A stretch of DNA of 64,000 bases, from positions 64,001 through 128,000 of IMG/VR virus record IMGVR_UViG_3300027863_000019, one strand, 5' to 3'. The position numbers and the translations under genes are program-made. How positions within the stretch are numbered: position 1 is the first letter of the stretch; each line of letters opens with the position of its first letter. The stretch is from a virus. Below the pieces are notes generated by a model that ran no database searches, was not told the origin of the DNA, and was given only the letters and a program-made list of their open reading frames with translations. Of this stretch, positions 11,518 through 43,002 are shown piece by piece.

Positions 11518-11583
11518 TGTAGGGTCTGAATACCGGATGAATCCGGCTTTCTAAAAGCCCTCTGAAGCTGAGGGAGCATTCAC
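11518..11583 (+). mobile_element. IS200/IS605 TnpB right-end/omegaRNA fragment (diverged copy)
   Basis: Similar to about 42937-43002; ends AAGCCCTCTGAAGCTGAGGGAGCATTCAC. Confidence 0.8.
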
Positions 11584-11584
11584 T

Positions 11585-11669
11585 AGTGTGAGGTAGTGAC
11601 GTTTAGGGTTACTTCGGTAAAGCAACTGTTCGAAAAAACAAAACCCTTTACACTTTTCTCCTCAATACT
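11585..11669 (+). ncRNA. Y-RNA-like unit 4
   Basis: AGTGTGAGGTAGTGACGTTTAGGGTTACTTCG ... AAACCCTTTACACTTTTCTCCTCAATACT. Confidence 0.65.
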
Positions 11670-11683
11670 TCGCAGGATTTGAA

Positions 11684-12031
11684 ATGGGTAACCTTAGTCA
11701 TTGCTGTCCGTTTTGTGGAACTCCAGTTACGGTAGTTGGGCCTTGTGAGAAGTGTATGCCTAAATCACCCGAGCAGATTTTGCAAGGAGCTATAAGAGAA
11801 GATCCTATATTACAACAGAGTATCGTGGCAACAGAAGGTGATGAACTAAAGGATATTATTTTTAACTACGTCAACGCCCAGCCTGAGAAGCGGCTTCACC
11901 TTGATACAATCATTGCACGAATTAAAGGTGCTATGCCGAACGAGCACACAGGAAGTGTAAAACGCGCACTAAGATTTTTGCTTGATGAAGGGCGCGTAAA
12001 GCAAATTCAAGAAACTATAGTAATCAATTAG
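11684..12031 (+). CDS. hypothetical protein, N-terminal Zn-binding motif and possible winged-helix C-terminus
   Basis: CPFC...CEKC; C-terminal VKRALRFLLDEGRV; AGGA RBS. Confidence 0.55.
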   Translation: MGNLSHCCPFCGTPVTVVGPCEKCMPKSPEQILQGAIREDPILQQSIVATEGDELKDIIFNYVNAQPEKRLHLDTIIARIKGAMPNEHTGSVKRALRFLLDEGRVKQIQETIVIN

Positions 12032-12164
12032 GAAGTGAGGAAACGGCTACTTCGACTAGGAACCGCCATTGTAGGTTCGAGTCCTACTCTCCCGATCATG
12101 GCGGGAGATGGTGAAATTGGTAATCACAGCGGAATAGAAAAACCGTTTTCATTTTTCTCCTAAT
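12027..12164 (+). ncRNA. YrlA-like Y RNA (unit 5) with circularly permuted tRNA-like domain
   Basis: Closing helix ATTAGGAAGTGAGGAAACGGCTACTTC / AACCGTTTTCATTTTTCTCCTAAT enclosing CCGC, T-arm GTAGG-TTCGAGT-CCTAC, loop-closed acceptor stem TCTCCCG/CGGGAGA, D-arm GTG-AAATTGGTAAT-CAC, GCGG; about 1.1 kb from Ro60. Confidence 0.82.
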
Positions 12165-12264
12165 GTAGTTGTGAGAGGTCTTACGAAACGAAAGCAATTA
12201 TATTTATATTAAGTCTCGCCCTTTCTAGTATCATTTGGGTGGCAGTACGACTTCATTAACTTGA

Positions 12265-12341
12265 TGCGGATTGGAGAAGCGGTCTATCTCGTTTGGTTCA
12301 TAACCAAAAGATCACCGGTTCGAATCCGGTATCCGCTACCA
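12265..12341 (+). tRNA. tRNA-Met(CAU), initiator-like
   Basis: Acceptor GCGGAT/ATCCGC with 1:72 mismatch, D-stem GAGA/TCTC, anticodon arm TTTGG-TTCATAA-CCAAA, T-arm ACCGG-TTCGAAT-CCGGT, encoded ACCA. Confidence 0.9.
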
Positions 12342-12347
12342 AATTTT

Positions 12348-12421
12348 AAATTGGGAAGTGAGGGTTGAGTTACTTCGATCATTGGTGACCGTTAACACTC
12401 AACTCGGTTTTCTCCCAATTT
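12348..12421 (+). ncRNA. Y-RNA-like unit 6
   Basis: AAATTGGGAAGTGAGGGTTGAGTTACTTCG ... ACTCAACTCGGTTTTCTCCCAATTT. Confidence 0.7.
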
Positions 12422-12438
12422 TCTTTGAACGCTCTCCA

Positions 12439-12460
12439 GGTAGTGAGTTGAGATACTTCG
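12439..12460 (+). ncRNA. Y-RNA-like unit 7, 5' half only (3' half replaced by tnpB fragment)
   Basis: GGTAGTGAGTTGAGATACTTCG followed 8 nt later by a tnpB 3'-end copy. Confidence 0.5.
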
Positions 12461-12468
12461 ACACTATT

Positions 12469-12567
12469 AATGCGGCTAAAAATATCCTGGCCCTGGGAAT
12501 GCAGGGCTTGAGGCTGGATTCATCCAGCTCTCTAGAAGCCCTCTGCTTCAGCTGAGGGAGCATTCAC
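12469..12567 (+). mobile_element. tnpB 3' end plus right end (omegaRNA scaffold fragment)
   Basis: Near-identical to about 42908-43002 (encodes NAAKNILALGMQGLRLDSSSSLEAL), ends GGGAGCATTCAC. Confidence 0.92.
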
Positions 12568-12768
12568 CGTCGCTGAAAAGAAAGAAACGAAGCGCAAAGC
12601 GGCATTCGGAAATACCATGAGTAATTCCGCTCTCAAAGAACTTCTTTTGATACCACTGCTTCAGATCGGAATTCAAAAGCCAAAATTCGTAGAAGAGCAG
12701 CAAGATTTTTTGACTACTGTCGTTTACCTCTTAACAAATTTGATTTTGAAACGCTTTAAATCTAATTT

Positions 12769-13131
12769 TTGAGGAATATGAAAATGTTAGAAAGTACATT
12801 CTCCAACGAGCTTCAGGGTGAACAACCTAATTTCGCTCCCGCGGCACCCGTTCTTTCAGGCATCACTTTCGTGGGACGAGTGGCAAAGATTCAGGTTTCG
12901 TTGCCTATCGCTGATGCAGATGGTGGTGCTTTGACTGGATTGGCTGCGGTGAATGTGTTCTATAAGAACGCTACATTCGTTGGTTCCGATCCTGCAACTG
13001 AACGTGCGGCTGGAACTCCGATAGTTACAGTTGCAATTACTCCTGAGCAAGCTGGCCAAGTGGTCGAAGTGGATATACCAGATCTTGAGTTTGGAAAGGT
13101 TTACTTCTTCGCCGCAACATGTAACGATTAA
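12769..13131 (+). CDS. hypothetical beta-rich (Fn3/Ig-like) protein; start probably 12778 or 12784
   Basis: APAAPVL...DADGGALTGLAAVNVFY...LEFGKVYFFAATC resembles Fn3-like phage proteins. Confidence 0.55.
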   Translation: MRNMKMLESTFSNELQGEQPNFAPAAPVLSGITFVGRVAKIQVSLPIADADGGALTGLAAVNVFYKNATFVGSDPATERAAGTPIVTVAITPEQAGQVVEVDIPDLEFGKVYFFAATCND

Positions 13132-13197
13132 TCCTGCTTAAAGCAAGGCTCCAATGGAAAGCCCTTTTTCAAATCAAAAGCAGGCAATGATCGTTCT

Positions 13198-13268
13198 TAT
13201 GCCTTGGCCTTGGTGTGTGATCTACGCCTGGATCATCAGATGGTGGCACAAGCTGAGGGAGCATTCAC
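13198..13268 (+). mobile_element. degenerate TnpB right-end fragment directly upstream of Ro60 RBS
   Basis: TATGCCTTGGCCTTGG..., GCCTGGATCATCAG, AAGCTGAGGGAGCATTCAC. Confidence 0.65.
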
Positions 13269-13289
13269 ATTCTTCCTGGAGGTGCTGAA

Positions 13290-14753
13290 ATGGCAAAATT
13301 CAACAGGAAAGTGTTATCACCAACATTAACAACTAACCTTGCAGGTGGTGAAGCTTATCAAGTGTCACCACAGTTGCAGTTCGTAACGACCCTGCTAACT
13401 TCATTCGCCGAAGACCAGTATTACCGGAAGGCAAGTGGAGCAGTCCGGACTGTTCGGTCTCTGATCGATCAGTTCCCGGATAAGTTGTTCGCGGCTAAGG
13501 CTGCGATCTTTGCTCGCAATGAGTTTGGAGTGAGATCCATTACTCACGTCGTTGCGGGTGAGATTGCCAATCGAGTTAAGGGAATCGGCTGGACCAAGCG
13601 GTTCTTCAATGCCGTTGTAAGGCGTCCGGATGACATCCTGGAAATTCTAGCTTATTACCTTGCAACTTATGGCAAGCCACTGCCAAACTCCTTGAAGAAA
13701 GGGTTGGCGGCTTCTTTCGACAAGTTCGACAAGTACCAGCTGGCAAAGTATCGCGGCGAGTCTCATAGCGTATCCCTCGTGGATGCGGTGAACTTAGTGC
13801 ACCCAAAACCGGTTGCCAAGAACGCGGAAGCGTTACGACAGCTGGTTAAGGATGCCCTGAAGTCCACTGAGACTTGGGAAGCGAAGTTGACCACTGCTGG
13901 ACAAGCGGCTCAAACCGAAGCGGAAAAGGAAGAGTTGAAGTCCCAAGCTTGGACTGAGTTGATTCGTGAGAAAAAGCTCGGGTACTTCGCGTTGCTCCGT
14001 AACCTACGGAACATCGCGCAGCAAGCTCCAGAGATTCTGGAAGATGCGCTGTCAATGCTGGTTGATCCGCAGCTCATCGAAAAGTCTTTGGTTCTTCCGT
14101 TCCGGTTTGGTACCGCATACAAGGAAATGGCTTTGGCTCGGAAGTCAGCCAGCACCAAAGCTGAAGTTTCCTTGTATGATAAAGTAGCGGGGGCTCTTGC
14201 AACGGCTGCTAGCATTTCTTTGAACAATGTGCCTAAGCTGCCTGGCAAAACCCTTGTGGCCTTAGATGTGTCGGGATCTATGGAAGGCAAACCTTTCGAT
14301 ATCGGATCCATGTTCGCTGTAGCTTTGGTAGGTGCGATGAAGGCGGATCTTATTATTTTCTCTAACTCCGCCAAGTACCTCAAACTGACCAAGACTGGAG
14401 ATATCTTCGAGAACATCGATTACATCTACAAGCATTCCGACTTTGGCGGAACTGACTTTCACTCAGTCTTCAGAACCGCCAAACATGCGTACGATAGAAT
14501 CATCATCCTGTCGGATATGCAGGCTTGGGTCGGGTATTATACACCAAAGGAAAGCGTGAAGGCCTTCAAGAAAGCCACTGGCGCCGATCCGCTAATCTAC
14601 TCCTTTGACCTGCAGGGTTATGGGACTCTGCAATTTCCAGAGTCAAAGGTATTCGCGCTGGCTGGATGGAGCGATAAGGTGTTTGACATCATGAAGATTT
14701 TAGAAACTGATCGTCAAGCCCTCATCAACACCATCAATGCTGTAACCTTCTAG
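13290..14753 (+). CDS. Ro60/Rsr TROVE-domain RNA-binding protein with vWA domain
   Basis: TTNLAGGEAY, AIFARNEFGVRS, KFDKYQLAKYR, ETWEAKL, GYFALLRNLRNI, LPFRF, MIDAS DVSGSM, GGTD, IIILSDMQ; GGAGG RBS. Confidence 0.93.
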   Translation: MAKFNRKVLSPTLTTNLAGGEAYQVSPQLQFVTTLLTSFAEDQYYRKASGAVRTVRSLIDQFPDKLFAAKAAIFARNEFGVRSITHVVAGEIANRVKGIGWTKRFFNAVVRRPDDILEILAYYLATYGKPLPNSLKKGLAASFDKFDKYQLAKYRGESHSVSLVDAVNLVHPKPVAKNAEALRQLVKDALKSTETWEAKLTTAGQAAQTEAEKEELKSQAWTELIREKKLGYFALLRNLRNIAQQAPEILEDALSMLVDPQLIEKSLVLPFRFGTAYKEMALARKSASTKAEVSLYDKVAGALATAASISLNNVPKLPGKTLVALDVSGSMEGKPFDIGSMFAVALVGAMKADLIIFSNSAKYLKLTKTGDIFENIDYIYKHSDFGGTDFHSVFRTAKHAYDRIIILSDMQAWVGYYTPKESVKAFKKATGADPLIYSFDLQGYGTLQFPESKVFALAGWSDKVFDIMKILETDRQALINTINAVTF

Positions 14754-14756
14754 TCC

Positions 14757-14798
14757 TAACGGGTAGGAGATCTATGGGTCTCCTACCCGTTATTTTTT
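14757..14798 (+). terminator. Rho-independent terminator after Ro60
   Basis: TAACGGGTAGGAGA-loop-TCTCCTACCCGTTA followed by TTTTTT. Confidence 0.85.
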
Positions 14799-14819
14799 GC
14801 TCTAATTGAGGATCCAGAC

Positions 14820-15134
14820 ATGGAACCAGTGTTGAGATCGAAAGCGCGTAGAGTTTCAATACAAACTTTGAAGGAACGTGACCTTGAATGGAAGAAGCTT
14901 ATGGATCAAAGTCATAGTTATGAATTAGATGAAGACTGCATTCGAGCTCACGTTTTAAACATGTTAGGACTTCTTAGTGAAGTCGATCTTCCTCAGGTAC
15001 TTCATGCTCGAATTGTTTGGGAAGAGCTGCAGGAAGGTGCTACAGGTCAAGTTCATCCTAATGTTGCTGAAGCAAGAAAAAGAGTTGAGATTTTAAAGAA
15101 AGAGGTGGAATCTAGTGCAGATGAATCAATTTAG
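14820..15134 (+). CDS. hypothetical protein
   Basis: 104-aa ORF with GAGG RBS. Confidence 0.6.
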   Translation: MEPVLRSKARRVSIQTLKERDLEWKKLMDQSHSYELDEDCIRAHVLNMLGLLSEVDLPQVLHARIVWEELQEGATGQVHPNVAEARKRVEILKKEVESSADESI

Positions 15135-15224
15135 AAGATAGATGAATGGTGGAATCTACGTAATTCAAAACTTAATTAACCATCAAGTTTATATTGGTAA
15201 TGTGGAATCGAAAGTATTTGGAGA

Positions 15225-15653
15225 GTGATGATGGAATTACTAGTTAAACTTCGTTATGAAGATTCAATCCCACCTTCAAAGAAACGTCGTGAAGATGCTG
15301 GGTGGGATTTATATTCTCAAAATGAAGTAACGTTAGCACCCGGAAGTACGGTTCCTTTAGACTGTGGAGTCTCTATTTGGGTGCCAGATGGATTTGCTGG
15401 GATTATCTTTCCTAGAAGTTCTTTTCGAAAACGCGGCTTGACCTGCCATAGCGTCTATGATCATGGGTATACTGGGTTGGTCCAACCGTTTATCACAAAC
15501 GGGTCAAATCAGGCAATTTTAATTGAAAAGGGTGAAAGAGTTTTACAATTCCTTTTCATGCCCGTTTTGCTTGGTGGTCGAGTTCGAATCGTTGAAGACT
15601 TACCTGAATCCGATCGCGGTGAGAACGGAGTAGGATCTACAGGTAGGAAATAA
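15225..15653 (+). CDS. dut: trimeric dUTPase
   Basis: DAGWDL, IFPRSS, YDHGYTG, GERVLQ, RGENGVGSTG (motifs 1-5). Confidence 0.9.
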   Translation: MMMELLVKLRYEDSIPPSKKRREDAGWDLYSQNEVTLAPGSTVPLDCGVSIWVPDGFAGIIFPRSSFRKRGLTCHSVYDHGYTGLVQPFITNGSNQAILIEKGERVLQFLFMPVLLGGRVRIVEDLPESDRGENGVGSTGRK

Positions 15654-15655
15654 TC

Positions 15656-15919
15656 ATGTTAGCAACAAATGGTCAATATATATTTAGTTTTGTGTGGTGG
15701 GTTTTTAGATTCATTACTTTAGCTGAAGTTGTGGCTATTGTTTATCTGTTTGCCTCGACTTGGAAGCTTAATAAGAGTATCGAAATTACCCAATCTATGA
15801 TGGAAGAAATCATGGAGCTAAAGAAACAGCGCGAAGTTCACTCCGGCGAGATGCTGCGAATGGATCAAAAGTTTTCCGAACTTTACTCTAAACATAAAAG
15901 GAATCCCGAAAATGACTGA
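15656..15919 (+). CDS. small membrane-anchored coiled-coil protein
   Basis: N-terminal hydrophobic segment, charged helical tail. Confidence 0.55.
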   Translation: MLATNGQYIFSFVWWVFRFITLAEVVAIVYLFASTWKLNKSIEITQSMMEEIMELKKQREVHSGEMLRMDQKFSELYSKHKRNPEND

Positions 15920-16289
15920 TTCTGATTGCACACAACATCGTACTTGTACTGGATAGATCTGGATCGATATCAACCGTTAAGGATGACAGGTTGGCAGTTT
16001 TAATCAATTCCTCGAAGAGCAACAAAGTTACTCCAGGTAAAAGCGACAATGACGCTGGCTCAATTTGATAATGAATATGATATCATTTATGACTTCGTCC
16101 CGATTCAGCATATTGCTAAGAGAACAGAGAAGAACTTTAATGGCTAGATTGCTTGATGCTGTTGGTATGACGACTAAAGGTGTCGAACAGTATCTAAGAA
16201 ATCTCCCCGAAAACCAAAGACCCTCAAAAGTTTTTGCGATTCTCACCAGCGGTCATGAAAATGATAGTCGCAAAAATTCCCCCGGTTAA
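15912..16289 (+). pseudogene. multiply frameshifted vWA-domain gene
   Basis: Pieces across frames: IVLVLDRSGSI (MIDAS), FNQFLEEQ, ATMTLAQFDNEYDIIYD, LLDAVG, KVFAILTSGHENDSR. Confidence 0.7.
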
Positions 16290-16367
16290 GTTTCATGTTT
16301 TAATGGTAATGCCACGAAAGGAATGTTTGGAACGTGTCCTCATAAAATTGAAAAGGGAGTGATTGTC

Positions 16368-17048
16368 ATGGCTGGAGAGATGTCTTGTATTGTCCTTTTA
16401 AGTGGTGGAATGGATAGTGCTACCTTACTCGCTAAAGCAATTAACGAGTTTGATAAAGTTAGCGCTCTCACTTTAATTTATGGTCAGAAGCATCGTCATG
16501 AATTAAAATGTGCAATGACTTTAACTAAGCACTTTAAAGTTCCCCACAAGGTCTTGGACGTATCGGTTATCAATTCGATTCTTCAAGGTTCGGCGTTAAC
16601 TGATTCTAGAGTGTCTGTTCCAAAAGGGCACTACGAAGATGAATCAATGAAGATGACCGTAGTGCCCGCACGAAATACAATCCTTCTAAGCCTCGCGCTT
16701 GGTTGGTGTATCAGCTGTGGATTTAATACGGTTGCGTATGCTGCACATTCTGGAGATCATGCAATCTATCCCGATTGTCGTCCAGACTATATCGCCGCGA
16801 TGCAAGACGTATTTAATAAAGCGCATTACTGGCCAATTAATCTATATGTACCTTTTATGCACATGGATAAAGGTTCAATCCTTGAAGTTGGATTTAAGTT
16901 GGGTGTTCCGTATGAACATACGTGGACTTGTTATGATCCACAGGGTGAAGAGCCCTTAGCATGTGGAACTTGTGGTAGTTGTACTGAAAGGCTTGAGGGA
17001 TTCGCAAAGAATAAAGTGAAGGATCCCGTTCAATACGTGAAAAGGTAA
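16368..17048 (+). CDS. queC: 7-cyano-7-deazaguanine synthase
   Basis: VLLSGGMDS, YGQKH..E, VVPARN, YPDCRP, TWTCY, CGTCGSC.ER; GGGAG RBS before ATG 16368. Confidence 0.95.
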   Translation: MAGEMSCIVLLSGGMDSATLLAKAINEFDKVSALTLIYGQKHRHELKCAMTLTKHFKVPHKVLDVSVINSILQGSALTDSRVSVPKGHYEDESMKMTVVPARNTILLSLALGWCISCGFNTVAYAAHSGDHAIYPDCRPDYIAAMQDVFNKAHYWPINLYVPFMHMDKGSILEVGFKLGVPYEHTWTCYDPQGEEPLACGTCGSCTERLEGFAKNKVKDPVQYVKR

Positions 17049-17053
17049 AACTT

Positions 17054-17503
17054 ATGATTGTCAAACTGATAGCTGCTCTTGAAGTTGATGATGAAGCTTT
17101 TCTTGGAATCGTTGCTGAACTAAAAGAAAAACTTAAAGCTGATGCGAAGATCATCGAGACGAATTCGGATCTTGAAACGCTCCCCGCTATCAGTCAGTAT
17201 TGGTTAGCTCAGCGAGCTGATCTTGAATTCTTTAAAAGGCAAATCGAAAGAGACATTCGAATTGTCTCCGGTCCATTTCTAGCGAAGATTCAAAAATCGC
17301 ATTATGTAACAAGTAAAATTCTTGAAGCAGCGTTGCAGGAAGATCAAGAGTATGCCAAATTAATGGATAAGCTGTCAAGAATAACTTATGTCTTGGACTT
17401 AATTAATTCGACTGTCACTAGCCTTTGGTTCAAACGCGATTCACTTGTGAACCTTTCTATCACTCAGAGAAAACAGCTGTCATTTGAACAGCGCGAGTAC
17501 TAG
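17054..17503 (+). CDS. helical protein, possible UvsY-like recombination mediator
   Basis: Helical, about 150 aa, upstream of SSB and RecA; call is largely contextual. Confidence 0.4.
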   Translation: MIVKLIAALEVDDEAFLGIVAELKEKLKADAKIIETNSDLETLPAISQYWLAQRADLEFFKRQIERDIRIVSGPFLAKIQKSHYVTSKILEAALQEDQEYAKLMDKLSRITYVLDLINSTVTSLWFKRDSLVNLSITQRKQLSFEQREY

Positions 17504-17531
17504 AAATGGGTAGCGGAGTTTATAATCCTTT

Positions 17532-17596
17532 TGCATGGCTTGAGGCTGGATTCATCCAGCTCTCTAGAAGCCCTCTGAAGCCGTGGGAACATTCAC
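17532..17596 (+). mobile_element. TnpB right-end/omegaRNA fragment
   Basis: GGCTTGAGGCTGGATTCATCCAGCTCTCTAGAAGCCCTCTGAAGCCGTGGGAACATTCAC matches about 42942-43002. Confidence 0.9.
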
Positions 17597-17650
17597 AATA
17601 AACAATATAAACTTTTAAACAGTGTTTAATTACACAGGAGGAGAACTGCT

Positions 17651-18472
17651 ATGACATTCTTAGACGCACTAAAGAAACAGTTGGACCCGGAGTCATTTCG
17701 TAAGCTTGCTGATGTCCGCTCTGCGGTAGAAGGCCGTTTTATGAAACTCGCTGACGGTATTAATACCGTCAGGATCTTGCCTGCTTATAAAGAAGGTGGA
17801 TTATGGTTTCGGGAAGTAAGGAACCACTTTAAAGTTGGTGGTGGAGAAAGAAATCGTGTGTGCGTTTGTAACGCTGCCGAGACTCCTCCATCAAGATGTT
17901 TCGTCGACGATGCTATTACAGTCTTAGCAATGTCGCCGAGTAAGGAAGATCAGGAAGCGGCTCGTAATATGAAAGCTAGTCGGGTCTTCTGGGTTAACGC
18001 TTATGATGTGAAAGCCGAAGAGCCCGTGGTAAAAATTTTACCTTTGAGCTTTACTGTCTTTGGACAGGTCTTTCAGCTATTCATAAGCGGCGAAGACTTC
18101 GTTCATCCCGAGACTGGATTCAATGTGATTATTACAAAGAACCCGGGAAATCGATATAACGTCCGTTTAGATCGTCAATCTTCGGCGATCGCTAACGAAG
18201 ACCTGCTAGGTCAATGTCATGACCTGGATGCAATAGTTCAAAATCAGCGTCGTAGTTATGAAGAGCAGAAAGGTTACTTTCCGCCTGAACTAGTTGCTCG
18301 TGTTGAGAGCTCTTTAGGTGGAGGTAAATCTTTTGAGGGTACTGGCACTATTACTCCAGAAGCACCTATCAAAGAAGCTAAAGATACTGGAGGAGATAAT
18401 ATCAAATCTGGTATGGATAAGTTGAAAGGTGCAATCGCAGGCGAAAAAGTCGTTCTCGGCGAGATCGACTAA
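17651..18472 (+). CDS. gp32-like single-stranded DNA-binding protein
   Basis: FMKLADGINTVRILP, His/Cys metal ligands, VFWVNAY, HPETGFNVIITK, acidic end; AGGAGG RBS; next to RecA. Confidence 0.7.
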   Translation: MTFLDALKKQLDPESFRKLADVRSAVEGRFMKLADGINTVRILPAYKEGGLWFREVRNHFKVGGGERNRVCVCNAAETPPSRCFVDDAITVLAMSPSKEDQEAARNMKASRVFWVNAYDVKAEEPVVKILPLSFTVFGQVFQLFISGEDFVHPETGFNVIITKNPGNRYNVRLDRQSSAIANEDLLGQCHDLDAIVQNQRRSYEEQKGYFPPELVARVESSLGGGKSFEGTGTITPEAPIKEAKDTGGDNIKSGMDKLKGAIAGEKVVLGEID

Positions 18473-18525
18473 TTATCTCAATGATCATGCCCGGGGGCTT
18501 TGGCTCCCGGGCTTCTAGAGTTTAT

Positions 18526-19530: not shown

Positions 19531-19532
19531 AA

Positions 19533-19667: not shown

Positions 19668-19728
19668 GCGCGATCCAGCAATTATCTTTAAAACTTCAAG
19701 CCAATTTTGATTGGTATGTAGCAATCGT

Positions 19729-19744
19729 CAGAGGGAGCATTCAC
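19729..19744 (+). mobile_element. minimal TnpB right-end remnant upstream of TerS
   Basis: CAGAGGGAGCATTCAC, 14-nt identity to the other right-end copies. Confidence 0.55.
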
Positions 19745-19756
19745 GCGAGGTTAGCA

Positions 19757-20305
19757 TTGAAGAACAATATTGAATTGCATAAACAGGCTTTTGAATTATA
19801 CGTTCAAGGGTTGACGCTCGAAGAAATTGCAGGTAAATTAAATGTTAGCCCCAATACTTTAAAGTATTGGAAGTCAGCGCACTGCAAGTGTACCTGTTCA
19901 TATCATGCTTGGGTGGATTTCAAAAGAAAGATGCAAGTTCAAGTCCCTCAAGTAGTTTCTGAGGCAGTAGTTACAGCTCTTCAACCCAAATATACCGCTC
20001 ATCAATTAATCGGTCTCTTAGAATCTATTTGCTCTGACGCGTTAGAAAATAAGAAGCTTAGACCTCAGACATGGAAAGAACTTTTAGAAACATTTAAATT
20101 AATCCTTGAATTAAAACGTGCGTATGGAACAGAAGAAACAGTTGAAAGTTCCTTTGATATTTTTCGAGTTAAAGGTAAACTGGATATTCACAAATTTGTT
20201 AATGACTTCATGAAGGTGGCAGAAACTCAAGGAGATGTTGAGGCAACCGAAGTTGCAGCATTAATTGAACACACTTTAGGGAGAACGCATGATACTGAAA
20301 GCTAA
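19757..20305 (+). CDS. putative terminase small subunit (N-terminal HTH)
   Basis: AFELYVQGLTLEEIAGKLNVSPNTLKYWK HTH; upstream of TerL. Confidence 0.6.
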   Translation: MKNNIELHKQAFELYVQGLTLEEIAGKLNVSPNTLKYWKSAHCKCTCSYHAWVDFKRKMQVQVPQVVSEAVVTALQPKYTAHQLIGLLESICSDALENKKLRPQTWKELLETFKLILELKRAYGTEETVESSFDIFRVKGKLDIHKFVNDFMKVAETQGDVEATEVAALIEHTLGRTHDTES

Positions 20306-23994: not shown

Positions 23995-23996
23995 CC

Positions 23997-34457: not shown

Positions 34458-34461
34458 ACTC

Positions 34462-34496
34462 AATGTGGAGATGGAGAGGAACTCCATCTCCACATT
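34462..34496. terminator. perfect hairpin between structural genes
   Basis: AATGTGGAGATGGAG-AGGAA-CTCCATCTCCACATT. Confidence 0.6.
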
Positions 34497-34509
34497 CTAA
34501 GGATGCTAC

Positions 34510-34962: not shown

Positions 34963-35012
34963 TGATGTTACATTCACCGCAATTTTATCTGCGGATTCTT
35001 AAGGGGGAAAGT

Positions 35013-35273
35013 ATGTCAACATTGAAAGAAGATTTTGATGCCTTGAAACGACTTCATTTGTCTGCTAATGAGGCTAATGAGAAACTTCAAGAGGAAAATC
35101 GTGAACTCCGTGACGAGAACATTTTACTACTAAAGAAGTTACTCGATTGCCAAAACGCACTTGATATAAATAAAGAAATTATGCGGAACGCATTAACCAT
35201 TCAAAATGAGATGAAAGATGCTTATACGCAAGAGATTAATAAGTTACGTGCACTAATTAAAACTCAAGGATAA
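35013..35273 (+). CDS. coiled-coil hypothetical protein
   Basis: Heptad-rich; AAGGGGG RBS before ATG 35013. Confidence 0.6.
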   Translation: MSTLKEDFDALKRLHLSANEANEKLQEENRELRDENILLLKKLLDCQNALDINKEIMRNALTIQNEMKDAYTQEINKLRALIKTQG

Positions 35274-35275
35274 CT

Positions 35276-36532: not shown

Positions 36533-36714
36533 CAGTAAATCATTTAGCAATAGCAGTAGATGGGATTGGATTTCCTCACTTAACTCTAGCAACCGAAGGG
36601 TTCATCTGGATTTCTGAACTCGTCCAGTTACGGGGTGTCAAATTACTTATTGAAATGCTGCCCCAACTATCATTTCAGGTTTCTGTGGAACCTAAAATTA
36701 ACTTGGAGCTCTAA
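36529..36714 (+). CDS. hypothetical protein
   Basis: ATGA overlap upstream, abuts next gene. Confidence 0.55.
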   Translation: MTVNHLAIAVDGIGFPHLTLATEGFIWISELVQLRGVKLLIEMLPQLSFQVSVEPKINLEL

Positions 36715-37053
36715 ATGTCAACACCTACTGTAACATTAAAGCAAGGTGAAGCAAAGCCGCTAGTACTAACGGTGAGAGATGCCAATGGCGCTCTTATGGA
36801 TCTAACTAATGCGGATTTGCTTTTAGGAGTAAAACAGAATAAGGCGGACACGTCGTACTTATTTAGTAAGGCAACTGTTGACTTTGATATTACTCAAGCA
36901 TCAACCGGAGTTGTCTCAGTTATGTTGACTTCTGCAGACACTGAGACTTCTGGAAAGTTTTTTGGTGAGTTGAAAGTGTCTTGGGGCCTTTCAGGAATTG
37001 TTGAAAAAAGTTCGGATTTTATACTTAAAATCGATGCGGCGGTGACAACATAA
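36715..37053 (+). CDS. BppU-N-like structural protein
   Basis: LKQGE...LTVRD.NG..MDLT...GVVSVMLT..DT...G.FFGELKV pattern. Confidence 0.55.
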   Translation: MSTPTVTLKQGEAKPLVLTVRDANGALMDLTNADLLLGVKQNKADTSYLFSKATVDFDITQASTGVVSVMLTSADTETSGKFFGELKVSWGLSGIVEKSSDFILKIDAAVTT

Positions 37054-37637
37054 TGTTAGCTGAAATTGATGATCTGAAAGCCTATCTTGGCTTTACTGAT
37101 GTCACGAGTGAAGATGATACACTCGATCTAATTATAGTTGGTGCCGATGCTTGGATACGAACTTATTGCGGAAGAGAGTTTGAATCAAGGCGTAGAACTC
37201 TTCGAGTAGATGCTACAGATTATTACACTTGTTGGGTTCCAGATATGCCATTAACTCAAGTTTATGCAGTTACCGCATTTACTAATATCATTGATACTGT
37301 TGGATTACCTATCGACTTAACTCGAGTTAGATACTATCAAAAAGGAATGATTTGGTCTGAACAAGCATTATTTGTTCCATCTGTGCCTAAAAGTGTTCTC
37401 GTTGACTATACTGCAGGATATGCGGCTGATGCTACTGAATTGAAAACATTAAAATGGGTTTGTTTAGAAGTAGCCGCACAAATGTATCGTAATCGTGGAA
37501 TCTTTAATCTCGACGACTATAACGCAGGTGGTGTGCAGTATCAGAAATACTCTTCCGATATTTGGCCTTTACTTGGTCCGGAAGTGATGGCGATTCTTGC
37601 GTCTTTTAAATCAGTTGGTCCGAGAGAAGATCTATAA
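37053..37637 (+). CDS. head-tail connector/adaptor (gp6/gp15-like)
   Basis: LAEIDDLKAYLG...D..L..II..A..WI..YCGR.F; VDYTAGY; LKWVCLEVAA..Y. Confidence 0.75.
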   Translation: MLAEIDDLKAYLGFTDVTSEDDTLDLIIVGADAWIRTYCGREFESRRRTLRVDATDYYTCWVPDMPLTQVYAVTAFTNIIDTVGLPIDLTRVRYYQKGMIWSEQALFVPSVPKSVLVDYTAGYAADATELKTLKWVCLEVAAQMYRNRGIFNLDDYNAGGVQYQKYSSDIWPLLGPEVMAILASFKSVGPREDL

Positions 37638-38210
37638 ATGCAATTTAACGATAAAGCATACTTCACTCGAAAGTCTGAGACCCTTGTTGATGCGTGGTCT
37701 CAAAGTTCGAGGTTAGCACTTCTACAACCTAACTTACCTGCTTTCCTTTCTGTGGAAGCTGTAATTCCAAGTGCTGGAACTTTAAACGTTACTGGTTTAA
37801 GTTCAGCTGGAGTAACAGTTACTGAAAGTATTTCATTTGATGAAAGTAGTATTAGGCTTTCAAATAATGAATATAAGTCGATTTTAACGTTAACTCCATC
37901 ATGGTCGACTTACAAAATTACTATCAAAGCGGAGGATAAACAAGGTCAACCAATTCAGGCTGCAACTTCGTTTGGGCCTTTTCCGGTAAGCGTAGTTAAC
38001 TTATCATCACAAAGACAAAGGGATAATGTCAATGTTCAAGGTTGGGAAAAAGATCAGTGGTTAATTGTTTATATTCAATCTTTCCAGCCGGAGACAAACG
38101 ACGAGGTTCGAACAACGAGGGGTTGGTCGGGCTGGGCTCAAGATGTTATTCCTGCTGCGCACATCAATTTCCCTGCAGGCTGGCAATTCTTTTTAAACAT
38201 CAGCAAATAA
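37638..38210 (+). CDS. hypothetical neck-region protein
   Basis: Position after the head-tail adaptor. Confidence 0.5.
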   Translation: MQFNDKAYFTRKSETLVDAWSQSSRLALLQPNLPAFLSVEAVIPSAGTLNVTGLSSAGVTVTESISFDESSIRLSNNEYKSILTLTPSWSTYKITIKAEDKQGQPIQAATSFGPFPVSVVNLSSQRQRDNVNVQGWEKDQWLIVYIQSFQPETNDEVRTTRGWSGWAQDVIPAAHINFPAGWQFFLNISK

Positions 38211-38228
38211 TCAAATCGTGGAGGATCT

Positions 38229-40538
38229 ATGAATCCTAAAGTTTCATTGATTTTGCCCGTTAAAAACGGGCTTCGTTACACTTTGGAGTGTTTAGAGTCT
38301 TTAAAAAATTCCAAACATATCCCTTTTGAAATCATTGTATGTGGTACTGGAACTGATGGTACTATTGCGATGATGATGGAGTGGGAACTCTTATACAATA
38401 ATATCCATTTTATTTTGAATGAATCAGGAGATACCTCATTTGGTGCAAACGTTAATATGGGCGCAGCAAAAGCGGTAGGTGATTACATTTGTGTTTTAAA
38501 TAATGACACGATTGTACCTCCTAACTGGTTAGCTTACATGGTCACTTGTTTTGAGTCTCTGGAGAAAGCTCCTGATAGACCAACTCCTCCGCCCGCGGTT
38601 GTTTCGCCAGTAAGTAACTACGTGATGTCACACCAATCAATCCAGCTTCCAGCAGATTTCCGTTTGGATATGCTCAATGAGTTCGCAGATCATGTCGCCA
38701 CTGAAAATAGGGGTAAATGGATTTATTCAGCCATCGTTTCAGGTTTCTGCATGCTCATTAAAAAATCCATCTGGAATCAATTGGGTGGATTCAATACTAA
38801 ACTTCGCAATGGAAATGAGGATGTTGAGTTCTGCTGCCGCGTGAATGAAGCGGGTTACTCTTGTTGGGTTGATAGGAGTACTTTCGTTTTTCATCATGGA
38901 TCTAAATCGTTAGCTGAAGAGGAAGATCAAGGAACTCACAATCGAATCGATTGTATTAAGTTGACTTGTGGTGCTGAGGCAACTGAAAAGAAAATTTCTC
39001 TAAACGCTCGCGTGAAGTGTTCACAAGAAGAGCTCAAGGCGTGGCTGGATCGTCATTATCATATGTTCGATATTGTGAATATCGTTGATGATGGCAGTGG
39101 ATGGGACATGGAGACCTTTCTAAAGGATGGCTATCCTAAGAGCACATATCTAAACATGTCCGGTGAAATTGAGGTTGTACAGCGCGAGAAAGCATATGAA
39201 TACTCGCTTGCTCAAGGAATGGATTGGATGGTGACTCTAGATCATGATGAGTTCCTCGAAGAGAAAATCGATCGTGAGTATCTGCAAAGATTAGCGAACA
39301 CTCCAATTCCAGGATGTTATTCGTTTATCGGGCGTTGGATTCATCTTTGGAATTCTCCAAACACTTATCATGTCTCGTATCCACCTCAAAATGGAATCTT
39401 CATGACTCGCGTTTTAAAAGGTATGAGACACTTTCAAGGTTCTCCAGGAACCTCATTGCATTGTAGTAGAATGCCAAACGTTCCTTCAGTCAGCACTGCG
39501 CCAGTGAATGTTCATATCCTTCATTATGGATATATCGATCCTGTGAGACGCGAAGAGAAACGCCAGTGGTATGAAAAGCTCGATCCAAATCCGGTTGAGT
39601 CTTTAGTTGGTGGTGTAGACTACTCTCACCTGACCAATCAAACTCACATCGTTCTTTCAGAGTGGTTCGGATCTAATAAGTACACGATCTCCCTTAATGC
39701 TCTAGCTGGATCTGAGCAGGAGCATAAAGTTCAAATGTTCCTTGAATCAATCGGTACAGTTGTTGATGAGATCGTTTTCAGGGTAGAACCTGGTCGCGAA
39801 GATTTAAAGTGGTTAATTAGTCGTTGGGGTGGTAAAGCTTATGAGAAGGAATGGTCTGATGATTATTCTGACATGAGAAACTACCTCATCAATAAATCTT
39901 CGTCCGCGTATATTCTCGTGCTAGATATGGATGAGCAATATACTAAGCCACCTGATATCATCACGATGATCGAATCTCAGCCAACTGCAATTATGTTTGG
40001 TGTGAACAATCTTCAACGTGGTAGACCTGATGTCTTCACTGAAGTTATGAGAATGTTTCAAAATCGTCCTGACATTCGTTTCTCTGGAGTCATTCATGAA
40101 ACGATTGAAGACGCGATTGGGAAAATCAAAAACAAGGTTGTCATCCGTGCGAAGGGTATCATAAACCATTTTGGGTTCTTGAACCCTGAATTACCGGACA
40201 AACTTAAAAAGTACATCAAGCTCAATAAGAAGGCAATGCACCGTGATCCAAAAGATCCAAAGCCATACTTCAACCTTGCATTGCACTATATTGAGGATGG
40301 AGACGTGAAAGAGGGAATTAAGAATCTTGAGAAGGCAATTATGCTCATGCCCAATTTCACGCTCGCCAAGATTGAATTGGCGAAACTTTATCTGAGATTT
40401 GCGAGGGCGCTGTTCTCGAGCAGCATGGGCGATATTCCGGAGAGTCATCCTTTGAAAAAGCCAGTAACAGAATTAGAGGGATATCTTAAACGTCTCGTAC
40501 CGGATAAGAATTTGCTCTTCCCTCCGCTGGATAGGTAA
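38229..40538 (+). CDS. multi-domain GT2 glycosyltransferase with C-terminal TPR
   Basis: KVSLILPV, VLNNDT, GNEDVEFC, further DxD motifs LDHDE and LDMDE, HYGY/HFGF, GVIHE, TPR PYFNLALHY...LEKAI. Confidence 0.85.
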   Translation: MNPKVSLILPVKNGLRYTLECLESLKNSKHIPFEIIVCGTGTDGTIAMMMEWELLYNNIHFILNESGDTSFGANVNMGAAKAVGDYICVLNNDTIVPPNWLAYMVTCFESLEKAPDRPTPPPAVVSPVSNYVMSHQSIQLPADFRLDMLNEFADHVATENRGKWIYSAIVSGFCMLIKKSIWNQLGGFNTKLRNGNEDVEFCCRVNEAGYSCWVDRSTFVFHHGSKSLAEEEDQGTHNRIDCIKLTCGAEATEKKISLNARVKCSQEELKAWLDRHYHMFDIVNIVDDGSGWDMETFLKDGYPKSTYLNMSGEIEVVQREKAYEYSLAQGMDWMVTLDHDEFLEEKIDREYLQRLANTPIPGCYSFIGRWIHLWNSPNTYHVSYPPQNGIFMTRVLKGMRHFQGSPGTSLHCSRMPNVPSVSTAPVNVHILHYGYIDPVRREEKRQWYEKLDPNPVESLVGGVDYSHLTNQTHIVLSEWFGSNKYTISLNALAGSEQEHKVQMFLESIGTVVDEIVFRVEPGREDLKWLISRWGGKAYEKEWSDDYSDMRNYLINKSSSAYILVLDMDEQYTKPPDIITMIESQPTAIMFGVNNLQRGRPDVFTEVMRMFQNRPDIRFSGVIHETIEDAIGKIKNKVVIRAKGIINHFGFLNPELPDKLKKYIKLNKKAMHRDPKDPKPYFNLALHYIEDGDVKEGIKNLEKAIMLMPNFTLAKIELAKLYLRFARALFSSSMGDIPESHPLKKPVTELEGYLKRLVPDKNLLFPPLDR

Positions 40539-40539
40539 A

Positions 40540-40896
40540 ATGCCAGGATTAGAAGAATACGTCCGTAAGTGGGCAGAAGTCGCTAAGCAAGAGCACGCTG
40601 CTCGAACTGAAGCAATCGTTGAGAAAATCTATACGGAAGCTAAAGACTTAGCGACTTCTGCCCCTGGGCTAAAGAATGCTGAATCTGGATTAGGTATGAG
40701 AACGGGTACTTTACTTCGTTCGATTTCGAAAAGGCGGATTATTGAACCTGATGGCTCAGTAGCGTTTGAAATTTACTACGATAAAAATATTTGTAATTAT
40801 GCGGAGTATATTGAAAACGGTACTCGAAAGATGAGACCATTCAAGATTTTGGCTTCAGCATACGATAACATTCTAGGTGAGGGAAGAAATAAATAG
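40540..40896 (+). CDS. HK97 gp10-like tail-completion protein
   Basis: RTGTLLRSI, YAEYIENGTRKMRP. Confidence 0.75.
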   Translation: MPGLEEYVRKWAEVAKQEHAARTEAIVEKIYTEAKDLATSAPGLKNAESGLGMRTGTLLRSISKRRIIEPDGSVAFEIYYDKNICNYAEYIENGTRKMRPFKILASAYDNILGEGRNK

Positions 40897-41027
40897 TGGG
40901 TAGCTGATCGGTTTTTGTGGTAATTTATTTACCATGATTCGAATCAATAGTGAAATTAGTCAACATAGAAACGGTTGCTTTCAAATTGTATTCATGGGTG
41001 TACGAATTTTTCAAGCGGTTTTTACTT

Positions 41028-41100
41028 ATGTTTAAAACATACAAATACCGGATTTTCCCTATCAAAAAACAGACTGCCTCTCTTGAGACCGTTCTGGAGG
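41028..41100 (+). mobile_element. tnpB 5'-end fragment
   Basis: 73-nt near-identical copy of 41860-41932 (MFKTYKYRIFPIKKQTASLETVLE). Confidence 0.9.
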
Positions 41101-41106
41101 TGTGCT

Positions 41107-41517
41107 ATCGGATATCTAGATGATATTGATGCGACATTACGTCGTACATTAGTTAATAATACAAATATTTCTAAGCTAGTTGGGACTCGAGTTCACCCGA
41201 CTTACTTAGCAGCGATTAAAGATCCTAAGTATCCGCTTATTTGTTTTATGCGCGTTTCACAAACTCGTGACTATCGTTACACAAAAAGAGTTTCTCCAGC
41301 TTATGATATGTATATTTACTCATCTCTTAATTATTCTGAGACCGACCAAATTTTTGATTATGTAAGACTTGCCTTAGATAATGAGTTCTTTCCCACCCCA
41401 GATGGTTCGGGAAGAATACAATTTAGAATTGTTCAAAATCCATCACAAAGTATGGATCCAGATGCCCTACTTTATTATGGTTTATTTCGAATTCAAGTAG
41501 TCGCGTTTTTTAAATAA
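41107..41517 (+). CDS. tail terminator-like (DUF3168-type) protein; start unclear
   Basis: LRRTLVNNTNISKLVGTRVHP...YPLICF...IYS...VRLALD; the N-terminal part of track ORF 40975 is an alternate frame of the tnpB fragment. Confidence 0.65.
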   Translation: MGYLDDIDATLRRTLVNNTNISKLVGTRVHPTYLAAIKDPKYPLICFMRVSQTRDYRYTKRVSPAYDMYIYSSLNYSETDQIFDYVRLALDNEFFPTPDGSGRIQFRIVQNPSQSMDPDALLYYGLFRIQVVAFFK

Positions 41518-41542
41518 AAGGAAGCCCTTCGGAGGTTCTGTA

Positions 41543-41743
41543 ATGGCTGATGATGTGAAGGATCTAGCTTGGAAGTGCCCGAGTTGTGAAGCAGTATTAG
41601 GTTATGTTACTCCCGATCTCAAGATGCTACGGATGAAATATAAAGATCATTACGTTTATATTGAGGAGGCTGTAACAATAACAACGTTATGTAGGCGTTG
41701 TGGTAAAGAATGTTTCCTTAGGCAAAAGAAATCGGATGCATAA
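41543..41743 (+). CDS. small Zn-finger protein
   Basis: WKCPSC...LCRRCG; GGAGG RBS. Confidence 0.65.
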   Translation: MADDVKDLAWKCPSCEAVLGYVTPDLKMLRMKYKDHYVYIEEAVTITTLCRRCGKECFLRQKKSDA

Positions 41744-41750
41744 GTTTGAT

Positions 41751-43002
41751 TATTGTGACGAGCAAGAGTGTTATATTCATACTCTTGTTTACGCCCATTG
41801 TCAGAATCCCTTCACTTATATCTCGAAGGGATTCTTGATTTTAAGTTTAGGTTAACCAAATGCTTAAAACATTCAAATACCGGATTTTCCCTACCAAAAA
41901 ACAGACTGCCTCTCTTGAGACCGTTCTGGAGGAATGTCGGTATCTTTACAACCGCTTGCTGGAGCAGCGCAAATACGCTTGGGATATTCAGGGAGTTTCA
42001 TTGGGATATTACCAGCAAGCCCGTATGCTACCTGGTATCAAAACAGCCCGGAATCTCCATCTGGCTTACTCTCAGGTCTTGCAAAACGTGGCAGTGCGGG
42101 TTGACCTAGCCTTCAAGGCTTTCTTCCGTCGTGTCAAAGCTGGAGAGAAACCCGGCTTTCCCCGGTTCAAGGGCAAAGGCTGGTACGATTCCATCACCTT
42201 CCCGCAGGTGCCCTTCGGTTGCTGCATCAAAGACAATAGGCTGTCGGTATCCAAGGTCGGCCACATCAAGATCGTCATGCACCGGGAGATGTACGGTAAG
42301 CCAAAGACGGCCACCATTAAGCGTTCTTCCACTGGTAAATGGTATGTGACCTTTGCTTGCGAAATTGAAGCTCAGCGCCTCCTAACTACCGATTCCTCTG
42401 CAGGAATTGACGTGGGTCTGCACACCTTTGCTATGCTTTCCAATGGCATGGCCATTGAAAATCCTCGGTTCTTCCGGGAAGAAGAAAAGGCCCTGGCTAA
42501 GGCCCAACGAAAACTGAGCAAAGCAGCTAAGGGAACGCCAGAGAGAGCTAAACAGCGCAAGGTCGTGGCTCGGGTGCATGAACGGTTAACTTGCCGCCGG
42601 AATAACTTTGCTCATCAGGAATCTCGTAAGATCGTCAATAACTACGGAACCATTTGCGTTGAAGATTTGACCGTCAACCGTATGGTTCATAACCATTGTC
42701 TCGCTAAAAGCATTGCGGACGCAGCTTGGTCCGGATTCTTCTCCATGCTCTCCTATAAGGCTGAAAGCGCCGGTAGGAAGCTGGTCAAAGTCAACCCGGC
42801 CTACACGACGCAGGACTGCCATAGGTGCGGATACCGACAAAAACTCAATCTTGCCGACCGTATCTACGCCTGTCCATGTTGTGGCTTGCATATTGACCGT
42901 GACCTCAATGCGGCTAAAAATATCCTGGCCCTGGGAATGCAGGGCTTGAGGCTGGATTCATCCGGTTCTCTAGAAGCCCTTTAAAGCCGTGGGAGCATTC
43001 AC
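41751..43002 (+). mobile_element. IS200/IS605-family tnpB-only (IS1341-type) element
   Basis: Left hairpin AGAATCCCTTC...GAAGGGATTCT at about 41803-41835, tnpB, right end ending TCAC at 43002; TTGAT at 41746-41750 is a candidate target motif; left boundary uncertain. Confidence 0.75.
41860..42984 (+). CDS. tnpB: RNA-guided endonuclease TnpB
   Basis: KYRIFP HTH, GFPRFK, RuvC D (GIDVG), E (VEDL), D (DRDLNAAKNI), Zn ribbon CHRCG/CPCCG. Confidence 0.95.
   Translation: MLKTFKYRIFPTKKQTASLETVLEECRYLYNRLLEQRKYAWDIQGVSLGYYQQARMLPGIKTARNLHLAYSQVLQNVAVRVDLAFKAFFRRVKAGEKPGFPRFKGKGWYDSITFPQVPFGCCIKDNRLSVSKVGHIKIVMHREMYGKPKTATIKRSSTGKWYVTFACEIEAQRLLTTDSSAGIDVGLHTFAMLSNGMAIENPRFFREEEKALAKAQRKLSKAAKGTPERAKQRKVVARVHERLTCRRNNFAHQESRKIVNNYGTICVEDLTVNRMVHNHCLAKSIADAAWSGFFSMLSYKAESAGRKLVKVNPAYTTQDCHRCGYRQKLNLADRIYACPCCGLHIDRDLNAAKNILALGMQGLRLDSSGSLEAL

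What the first reader, a model, noticed from the sequence alone, without database searches (positions are those of the whole stretch)
11518..43002. Dispersed TnpB right-end/omegaRNA scaffolds, each followed by a different potential guide, with one intact TnpB
Copies ending GGGA[G/A]CATTCAC occur at 11583, 12567, 13268, 17596, 19744 and at the full element (43002). The internal hairpin covaries: CTGGAT-TC-ATCCAG (12.5 and 17.5 kb), CTGGAT-TC-ATCCGG (43 kb), CCGGAT-GA-ATCCGG (11.5 kb). Established: TnpB guide RNA comes from the tnpB 3' end/right end, and the guide is the flank just beyond the end. The flanks here are TAGTGTGAGGTAGTGA, CGTCGCTGAAAAGAAA, ATTCTTCCTGGAGGTG, AATAAACAATATAAAC, GCGAGGTTAGCATTGA and AAATGTGGACAATATT. 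Inference: orphan scaffolds could load the single TnpB in trans as a distributed guide set against related phages lacking the insertions. Several sit just upstream of key features (Y unit 4, Ro60, SSB, TerS) and may be domesticated 5' structures. Simple decay is the null, and the shortest copies are too small to be full scaffolds.
Basis: partly seen in the sequence, partly recalled or inferred. Interest (0 to 1): 0.7.

Follow-up and report, generated by a model that had tools for sequence, protein, structure and literature searches.

The report
Decayed transposon right ends in phage
An uncultured phage carries one intact guide-RNA-using transposon gene (tnpB) plus scattered leftovers of earlier insertions of the same element. 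All but one leftover are too damaged to make a guide RNA, so this is mostly ordinary transposon decay.

Summary
Six + strand sites end in the same 12-mer (0.37 expected by chance), and one of them closes an intact tnpB-only IS200/IS605-type element (about 41793-43002).

The "distributed guide set" reading is mostly not supported.
- In 17 related elements the guide-RNA core has a hairpin (H1) whose loop forms a pseudoknot with the five bases just before the guide. That pseudoknot is paired in 100% of cells, and three of its five pairs show compensatory changes.
- Only the resident end and the orphan at 12469-12567 keep H1 and the pseudoknot.
- The copies ending at 11583 and 17596 share a deletion of the pseudoknot partner.
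- The copies ending at 13268 and 19744 are only 14-19 nt long.
- None of the five orphans has a left end, so they are not PATE-like.
- None is present at the matching site in any syntenic relative sampled. Homology resumes on the first base after the end at two sites and 6-50 nt beyond it at the others.
- A 75-nt tnpB 5' fragment (41028-41102) and deletion junctions at short shared sequences also point to insertion followed by deletion.
- The adjacent motif is more likely TTAC/TTTAC than TTGAT.

One open point remains. The 12567 orphan folds better than the resident end, whose last hairpin is damaged, and it sits in the Y-RNA/tRNA array.

The scan had already noted these right ends on an overlapping window of this genome.

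The parts
41788..41792 (+). Candidate transposon-adjacent motif TTTAC, just 5' of the left end
   Evidence: Family members L002-L004 have TTTAC/TTAC directly 5' of their conserved left ends. The empty site in relative L020 has TTTAC 3 nt from the flank match. This assignment is inferred, not proven.
41793..41859 (+). Candidate left end, with a perfect 10-bp hairpin (41804-41813 pairing with 41825-41834)
   Evidence: Read from the sequence. There is partial similarity to the left end of the C72 element. No other copy of this stretch exists in the window. The boundary is uncertain and could lie as far left as 41745.
41860..42984 (+). Intact tnpB (374 aa)
   Evidence: Pfam HTH_OrfB_IS605, OrfB_IS605 and Cas12f1-like_TNB domains. 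RuvC D/E/D motifs and two CxxC pairs are present in the translation. The nearest relatives are 79% (C72) and 77% (L001) identical in amino acids.
42895..43002 (+). Resident right end and omegaRNA core: H1 42927-42946, pseudoknot strands 42935-42939 and 42996-43000, H2, and a weakened H3
   Evidence: CM R1 scores it 81 bits. H1 and the pseudoknot covary across the family. The fold shows H3 reduced to about 3 bp. Homology to L020 resumes exactly at 43003.
43003..43018 (+). Predicted guide of the resident element
   Evidence: It matches the homologous site of L020/L021 with 2 mismatches.
12469..12567 (+). Orphan right end with a complete core (H1, pseudoknot, H2, 5+2-bp H3). It is fused to the 5' half of a Y-RNA-like unit.
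   Evidence: BLAST gives 97% identity over 74 nt and the CM gives 70 bits over model positions 1-107. The fold is a clean three-hairpin structure, -36 kcal/mol, with MFE equal to centroid. L118 has an intact Y unit plus a small ORF at this site.
11510..11583 (+). Orphan right-end fragment lacking the H1 5' strand and loop, so it has no pseudoknot partner
   Evidence: CM 26 bits with broken H1 pairs; fold. L118 and L119 hold a different structured element of about 110 nt here, and homology resumes at 11589.
17524..17596 (+). Orphan right-end fragment with the same H1 deletion
   Evidence: BLAST 91% over 67 nt; CM 15 bits with H1 broken. It lies in a window-only insert, 17497-17638, where L029 and L118 have 8 nt.
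13250..13268 (+). 19-nt terminal remnant, 22 nt upstream of the Ro60 start codon
   Evidence: No right-end similarity upstream. Homology to L029, L119 and L120 starts exactly at 13269.
19728..19744 (+). 14-17-nt terminal remnant, 12 nt upstream of the small-terminase start codon
   Evidence: It lies in a window-only stretch, 19668-19766. L024-L026 and L118 have another small ORF there, and L027 and L029 have nothing.
41028..41102 (+). tnpB 5' fragment (start codon plus 24 codons) with no left end, ending at a GGAGG junction
   Evidence: 97% identical to 41864-41932. It lies inside a 235-nt window-only insert compared with L020.

Best explanation
A tnpB-only IS200/IS605-type insertion sequence (IS1341-like) has inserted repeatedly into this phage lineage, always in the direction of transcription. 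One copy is still whole (about 41793-43002). The other insertions were mostly removed by deletions between short shared sequences. What remains is five 3'-terminal right-end remnants of 99, about 70, about 70, 19 and about 15 nt, and one 5' tnpB remnant of 75 nt. Each remnant keeps the original junction between the right end and the phage flank, which is why each is followed by a different sequence. Four of the five cannot fold into the family's guide-RNA core and are inert scars. The two roughly 70-nt copies share one internal deletion, so they descend from a single defective variant. Shown here: the copies, their extents, the family RNA structure, their absence from relatives, and the junctions. 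Inferred: the order of events (insertion, then deletion) and the deletion mechanism.
For: 1. The family structure is defined by covariation. On 17 right ends, H1 plus the pseudoknot plus the base of H3 are 96.9% paired, against 75% in shuffles and 35-44% when the partners are slid. The pseudoknot is 100% paired, with compensatory changes in 3 of its 5 pairs.
2. Only 43002 and 12567 match the full model. In 11583 and 17596 the H1 pairs are broken, and 13268 and 19744 are not detected at all. The folds agree.
3. Nothing right-end-like lies upstream of the two mini copies.
4. No left-end sequence occurs anywhere else in the window.
5. The syntenic relatives lack all five orphans and lack the resident copy at the matching sites. 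Homology restarts at 13269 and 43003, the first base after the end.
6. Deletion junctions sit at short shared sequences. One is an AATGC-type overlap between the Y unit and the tnpB 3' end at 12469. Another is GGAGG at 41102.
7. The same stretch shows other deletion decay: an HD-domain gene that is intact in L118 is reduced to a fusion remnant at 12617-12700.
8. Relative C72 has its own full copy at a different site and its own 14-nt mini copy, again directly before a ribosome-binding site.
9. A truncated copy also exists in another viral contig, L207.
Against: The remnants are not a random sample of the element. Apart from one 5' piece, all of them are the last 100 nt or less, and they keep the exact terminus. 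Three mini copies in two phages start at the same position, the 3' strand of H3. This points to a biased mechanism or to some constraint; microhomology between the GAGGG in the end and Shine-Dalgarno-like sequences is my guess and is not shown. The two roughly 70-nt copies share a deletion and about the same left edge, which independent decay does not predict. The relatives are only 65-80% identical in DNA, so conservation among close kin is untested. The orphan at 12567 is structurally intact.
Confidence: 0.75

Rival explanations
1. The orphan at 12469-12567 is a working trans omegaRNA. It would be transcribed with the Y-RNA/tRNA array, loaded onto the single TnpB, and used to cut genomes that carry TAM plus its 16-nt flank. 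That would extend or even replace the weakened cis guide. This is compatible with the other copies being scars.
For: It keeps every covariation-supported element, scoring 70 bits over the full model. It has the cleanest three-hairpin fold of the window's copies, whereas the resident end has lost the 5' strand of H3. In ISDra2 only the last 116 nt of scaffold are needed (PMC10097598). Meers et al. already proposed gene-less elements supplying omegaRNAs to TnpB in trans (PMC10055086). TTAC lies within 0-3 nt of the equivalent point in L118 and L119.
Against: There is no expression evidence. Homology stops about 9 nt short of the model's 5' end. The copy is absent from every relative sampled. Its flank matches nothing else at 2 mismatches or fewer, and the homologous sites in L118 and L119 differ heavily. 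At 97% identity to the resident end it may simply be young.
Confidence: 0.15
2. The terminal 14-19 nt, or the longer fragments, were kept because they serve the phage. They might act as a leader, processing or regulatory element in front of Ro60, SSB and the small terminase, or as portable junctions for swapping gene cassettes.
For: The copies ending at 13268, 17596 and 19744 and the C72 mini copy lie 12-54 nt upstream of a start codon. All of them sit at breaks in synteny. The three mini copies share the same 14-mer and the same left edge.
Against: None is conserved at its site in any relative. Each downstream gene has its own Shine-Dalgarno sequence after the remnant. The consensus scan found no more promoter or terminator signals than in shuffles and none at the remnants. 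Intergenic positions are where insertions and partial deletions are tolerated anyway. Terminal identity is explained by the constraint on active source elements (pseudoknot).
Confidence: 0.07
3. The orphans are PATE/MITE-like non-autonomous elements that a TnpA can still move.
For: They are short, gene-less copies of a transposon end, and two of them share an internal deletion.
Against: No left-end sequence or left-end hairpin accompanies any of them. The mini copies lack even the right-end hairpins. The resident element has no room for a tnpA, and none was seen next to the copies.
Confidence: 0.03

Closest known systems
IS200/IS605-family tnpB-only elements (IS1341 type) and their omegaRNA, as in ISDra2 (PMC8612924, PMC10097598)
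   Same: The TnpB has HTH, RuvC and zinc-finger TNB domains. The guide RNA overlaps the 3' end of tnpB and the right end. A pseudoknot uses the bases just 5' of the guide, and the guide is the flank beyond the end. There is no tnpA inside the element. Insertion is probably 3' of a TTAC-like motif, as for IS608.
   Different: The core is shorter: about 76 nt from H1 to the end, against 116 nt in ISDra2. The pseudoknot partner lies in the loop of H1. No Rfam family matches. The host is a phage. The resident copy's last hairpin is damaged.
PATEs, gene-less IS200/IS605 derivatives that encode omegaRNAs used in trans (Meers et al., PMC10055086)
   Same: Gene-less copies of the right-end/omegaRNA region lie dispersed in a genome that holds a TnpB elsewhere.
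   Different: PATEs keep both ends and stay mobilisable. These copies have no left end, and four of the five lack the RNA core.
Solo ends and other IS remnants left by deletion in bacterial and phage genomes
   Same: The copies are truncated, specific to this lineage and not conserved. Their junctions sit at short shared sequences, and they lie in a region with other deletion scars.
   Different: There is a strong bias towards the extreme 3' terminus, with the insertion junction exactly preserved.

Membership tests
IS200/IS605 tnpB-only element (resident copy) | TnpB with a RuvC D/E/D triad and a zinc-finger TNB domain | tested here: met
   Pfam domains all above their cut-offs; the motifs are seen in the translation.
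IS200/IS605 tnpB-only element (resident copy) | A structured right end overlapping the tnpB 3' end, with a sharp boundary where homology to other copies and to empty sites stops | tested here: met
   All family right ends stop at TCAC. L020 homology resumes at 43003.
IS200/IS605 tnpB-only element (resident copy) | A left end with a subterminal hairpin, inserted 3' of a short target motif (TAM), with no target duplication | tested here: inconclusive
   A hairpin is present at 41804-41834 and TTTAC at 41788-41792. The left flank is rearranged compared with L020 and C72, so the boundary and the TAM are inferred only.
Functional omegaRNA scaffold of this TnpB family | Hairpin H1 with its loop forming a pseudoknot with positions -7 to -3 before the guide | tested here: met
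   Met for the copies ending at 43002 and 12567.
Functional omegaRNA scaffold of this TnpB family | The same feature, tested in the orphans ending at 11583, 17596, 13268 and 19744 | tested here: not met
   The H1 5' strand and loop are absent in 11583 and 17596 (NC marks). The other two are 14-19 nt only.
Functional omegaRNA scaffold of this TnpB family | Transcription, processing and binding by TnpB | not testable with these tools
   No expression or binding data are available.
PATE / MITE-like non-autonomous IS200/IS605 element | Both a left end and a right end flanking a short gene-less core | tested here: not met
   BLAST with word size 7 of the whole element against the window finds no second left end.

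The most novel reading that the evidence does not exclude
The phage has moved guide-RNA production away from the transposon. A structurally intact orphan omegaRNA (12469-12567), fused to a Y-RNA-like unit in the tRNA/Y-RNA array next to Ro60, is expressed with that array. It arms the single TnpB, whose own right end has a damaged hairpin and may no longer be excisable. The result would be a fixed, phage-owned RNA-guided nuclease used against competing phages or for homing of the neighbouring cassette. That would be an early step from transposon nuclease to a domesticated nuclease with a guide encoded elsewhere.
Probability: 0.1. Interest if true: 0.65.

Novelty: new member of a known kind. Interest (0 to 1): 0.3.

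Why it matters
As it stands, this is a clear record of how a TnpB element enters and erodes in a phage genome, and it gives a covariation-supported core (hairpin plus pseudoknot) for a TnpB/omegaRNA family that Rfam does not hold. It also gives a simple rule for telling dead right ends from possibly live ones. It would matter more if the one intact orphan were shown to load TnpB in trans. That would be a natural case of guide and nuclease encoded apart in a virus, which bears on how CRISPR-like arrangements arose from transposons.

Tried and rejected
- Two scans of IMG/VR with right-end patterns found nothing. The first had the wrong spacing, which was my error.
- A scan with the terminal 16-mer gave 20 hits. 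Only one (the L001 contig) is a real right end; the rest are chance matches inside genes of unrelated phages.
- The phage GenBank collection has no close relative of the element or of the phage.
- Rfam has no family for this right end.
- I looked for a duplicated flank on the left of each orphan, which interrupted copying after a TnpB cut would leave. Reading the sequence, I found none.
- I looked for second targets of the six flanks in the window and in the relatives. There are none at 2 mismatches or fewer apart from the homologous sites.
- The idea that 13268 and 19744 are longer but diverged copies was rejected against shuffles.
- TTGAT as the TAM was rejected as the less likely option. 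It occurs near the left end, but it is not adjacent to any empty-site match.
- The TAM could not be fixed, because the left flank of the resident copy is rearranged compared with all relatives.
Full report
**Observation.** Shuffled sequence gives 0.37 matches on average. The last site closes a 374-aa TnpB gene (41860-42984). That gene has all three Pfam domains, and its translation shows the RuvC D/E/D motifs and both CxxC pairs. The window is part of a large uncultured tailed phage. It encodes a Ro60/TROVE protein, an SSB, a UvsX-like recombinase and both terminase subunits. No whole genome is held for it.

**How much of the right end each copy holds.**
- BLAST of the whole element against the window finds 74 nt at 97% identity (12469-12542), 67 nt at 91% (17532-17598) and 43 nt at 84% (11541-11583). 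At 13268 and 19744 only the terminal 12-13 nt match.
Alignment extends it to 41028-41102, that is, the start codon plus 24 codons with no left end upstream.
- No second copy of the left-end region exists in the window.
- Local alignment of the 100 nt upstream of the two short copies, and of a third short copy in a relative, against all long copies does no better than shuffles. These copies really are only 14-19 nt long.

**What a working guide-RNA core looks like in this family.** I collected TnpB relatives from viral contigs (46-77% amino-acid identity) and aligned 17 right ends.
- All of them end in TCAC.
- All have a hairpin H1 directly after the last RuvC motif, a variable hairpin H2, and a hairpin H3.
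- The five bases at -7 to -3 before the guide pair with the loop of H1.
- Counting on the alignment, the structure is 96.9% paired, against 75% in shuffles and 35-44% when the partners are slid.
- All seven H1 pairs show compensatory changes.
- The pseudoknot is paired in 100% of cells, with compensatory changes in three of its five pairs.
- This matches in kind the pseudoknot next to the guide in the ISDra2 TnpB structure, where only the last 116 nt of scaffold are needed (PMC10097598).
- Rfam has no matching family.

**Scoring the window's copies against that structure.** A covariance model built from the 17 ends, run with filters off, gave these results:

| Copy (end) | Score | Comment |
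|---|---|---|
| 43002 | 81 bits | full model |
| 12567 | 70 bits | full model |
| 11583 | 26 bits | H1 pairs flagged as broken |
| 17596 | 15 bits | H1 pairs flagged as broken |
| 13268, 19744 | not found | too short |

Nothing else in the 64 kb scored convincingly.

Folding agrees.
- The 12567 copy gives a clean H1-H2-H3 fold at -36 kcal/mol, with MFE equal to centroid.
- The 11583 and 17596 copies keep only H2.
- The two short copies have no scaffold.
- The resident end has lost the 5' strand of H3 (about 3 bp remain). Its relatives L001 and C72 have 5-8 bp there.
- The 11583 and 17596 copies share the same internal loss of the H1 5' strand and loop, and they share an H3 variant. They therefore descend from one defective variant and are not two independent truncations.

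**Relatives.** Flanking-gene searches recovered syntenic phage contigs:
- L020 and L021 cover window 37.1-48.4 kb.
- L024-L029 cover 13.3-23.9 kb.
- L118-L121 cover 7.1-21.1 kb.
- A 90-kb contig, C72, binned in a spirochaete MAG, is collinear with most of the window. Its TerL is 70% identical in amino acids.

None of them carries a right-end copy at any of the window's six sites.
- Homology to L020 resumes at 43003. Homology to L029, L119 and L120 resumes at 13269. In both cases this is the first base after the end.
- The 17596 copy lies in a 142-nt window-only insert.
- The 19744 copy lies in a stretch where relatives hold either another small ORF or nothing.
- At the 11583 site, L118 and L119 hold a different structured element of about 110 nt. 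At the 12567 site, L118 has an intact Y-RNA-like unit followed by a small zinc-ribbon ORF.
- C72 has its own full element (TnpB 79% identical) at another place. It also has its own 14-nt mini copy, directly after a stop codon and before a ribosome-binding site.
- Other viral contigs with this TnpB family mostly show right ends attached to full genes. One truncated copy was seen, L207.

**Junctions.**
- The left junction of the 12567 copy falls in a short AATGC-type overlap between the Y unit (as seen in L118) and the tnpB 3' end.
- The 5' fragment ends at GGAGG, where L020 has the Shine-Dalgarno sequence of the downstream gene.
- The C72 mini copy begins at GAGGG, where the window has a GAGAGG Shine-Dalgarno sequence.
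- In the same stretch, the window has reduced an HD-domain gene that is intact in L118 to a fusion of its first and last codons.

Together these fit repeated insertion followed by deletion between short shared sequences. That is an inference from anatomy.

**TAM.**
- L002-L004 have TTTAC/TTAC directly 5' of their left ends.
- The window has TTTAC at 41788-41792, just before the left-end hairpin.
- The empty site in L020 has TTTAC 3 nt from the flank match.
- L118 has TTAC exactly 49 nt before the next start codon, the same distance as from the 12567 end to that codon in the window.

This favours a TTAC-type motif, as known for IS608, over TTGAT. It remains unproven, because the left flank of the resident copy is rearranged in all comparisons.

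**Targets.** The six flanks have no second match at 2 mismatches or fewer in the window or in the relatives, other than their own homologous sites. None of those sites is directly preceded by TTAC. At this sampling depth there is no sign of a guide set aimed at known relatives.

**Reading.** The best explanation is ordinary turnover of an insertion sequence in a recombination-proficient phage. The shared + orientation is expected from what is known of strand-specific IS200/IS605 insertion (my knowledge, not tested here).

What simple decay does not fully explain:
- the strong bias towards extreme 3' remnants with exact termini;
- the common left edge of the three mini copies;
- the shared left edge of the two roughly 70-nt copies.

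The idea that gene-less copies feed omegaRNAs to TnpB in trans is already in the literature (PMC10055086). Its placement inside the Y-RNA/tRNA array, and the damaged hairpin of the resident end, make it worth an RNA-seq look.

**Earlier notes of this scan.** I could not check those. Other notes on the damaged H3 and on the tnpB 5' fragment agree with what I found independently.

Noticed in passing
window 41028-41102 (insert 40876-41109): A tnpB 5' fragment (start codon plus 24 codons, no left end) sits in a 235-nt window-only insert. It replaces the Shine-Dalgarno sequence and TTG start that relative L020 has for the next gene. In the window that gene has no obvious canonical start in the matching frame.
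   Followed up: partly
window 11060-12460; L118 3870-5550: An array of Y-RNA-like units sharing a hairpin motif (5 exact motif hits against 0.08 expected). It includes a weak YrlA match (12040-12152, 25.5 bits) and a tRNA-Met (12265-12341), upstream of Ro60. The array is conserved in L118 and L119, and L118 has a stronger YrlA match (37 bits).
   Followed up: partly
window 12437-12468 vs L118 5480-5548: The last Y-like unit is truncated in the window by the 12567 remnant. In L118 the unit is complete, with its own 3' strand right next to it.
   Followed up: partly
window 11423-11503; L118 4052-4172; L119 711-817: A small ORF encodes a Gly/Lys-rich repeat peptide (26 aa in the window, longer in the relatives). 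It is conserved in position between two Y-like units.
   Followed up: no
L118 4172-4262; L119 about 820-925: A conserved structured element of about 110 nt (a hairpin plus a long palindromic stem) occupies the site where the window has the 11583 remnant. There is no Rfam match at E up to 0.1.
   Followed up: no
window 12617-12700 vs L118 5777-6475: An HD-domain gene that is intact in L118 and L119 is reduced in the window to an in-frame fusion of about 17 N-terminal and about 10 C-terminal codons. The deletion probably occurred between short repeats.
   Followed up: partly
G005 contig C72 (L113-L117): A 90-kb contig binned in a MAG titled Brevinema andersonii is collinear with this phage. It is either a prophage or a binning artefact, and possibly a host clue.
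   Followed up: no
window 42968-42995: The resident right end lacks the 5' strand of hairpin H3, which all relatives have. If H3 is the hairpin the transposase recognises, this copy may no longer be excisable.
   Followed up: partly
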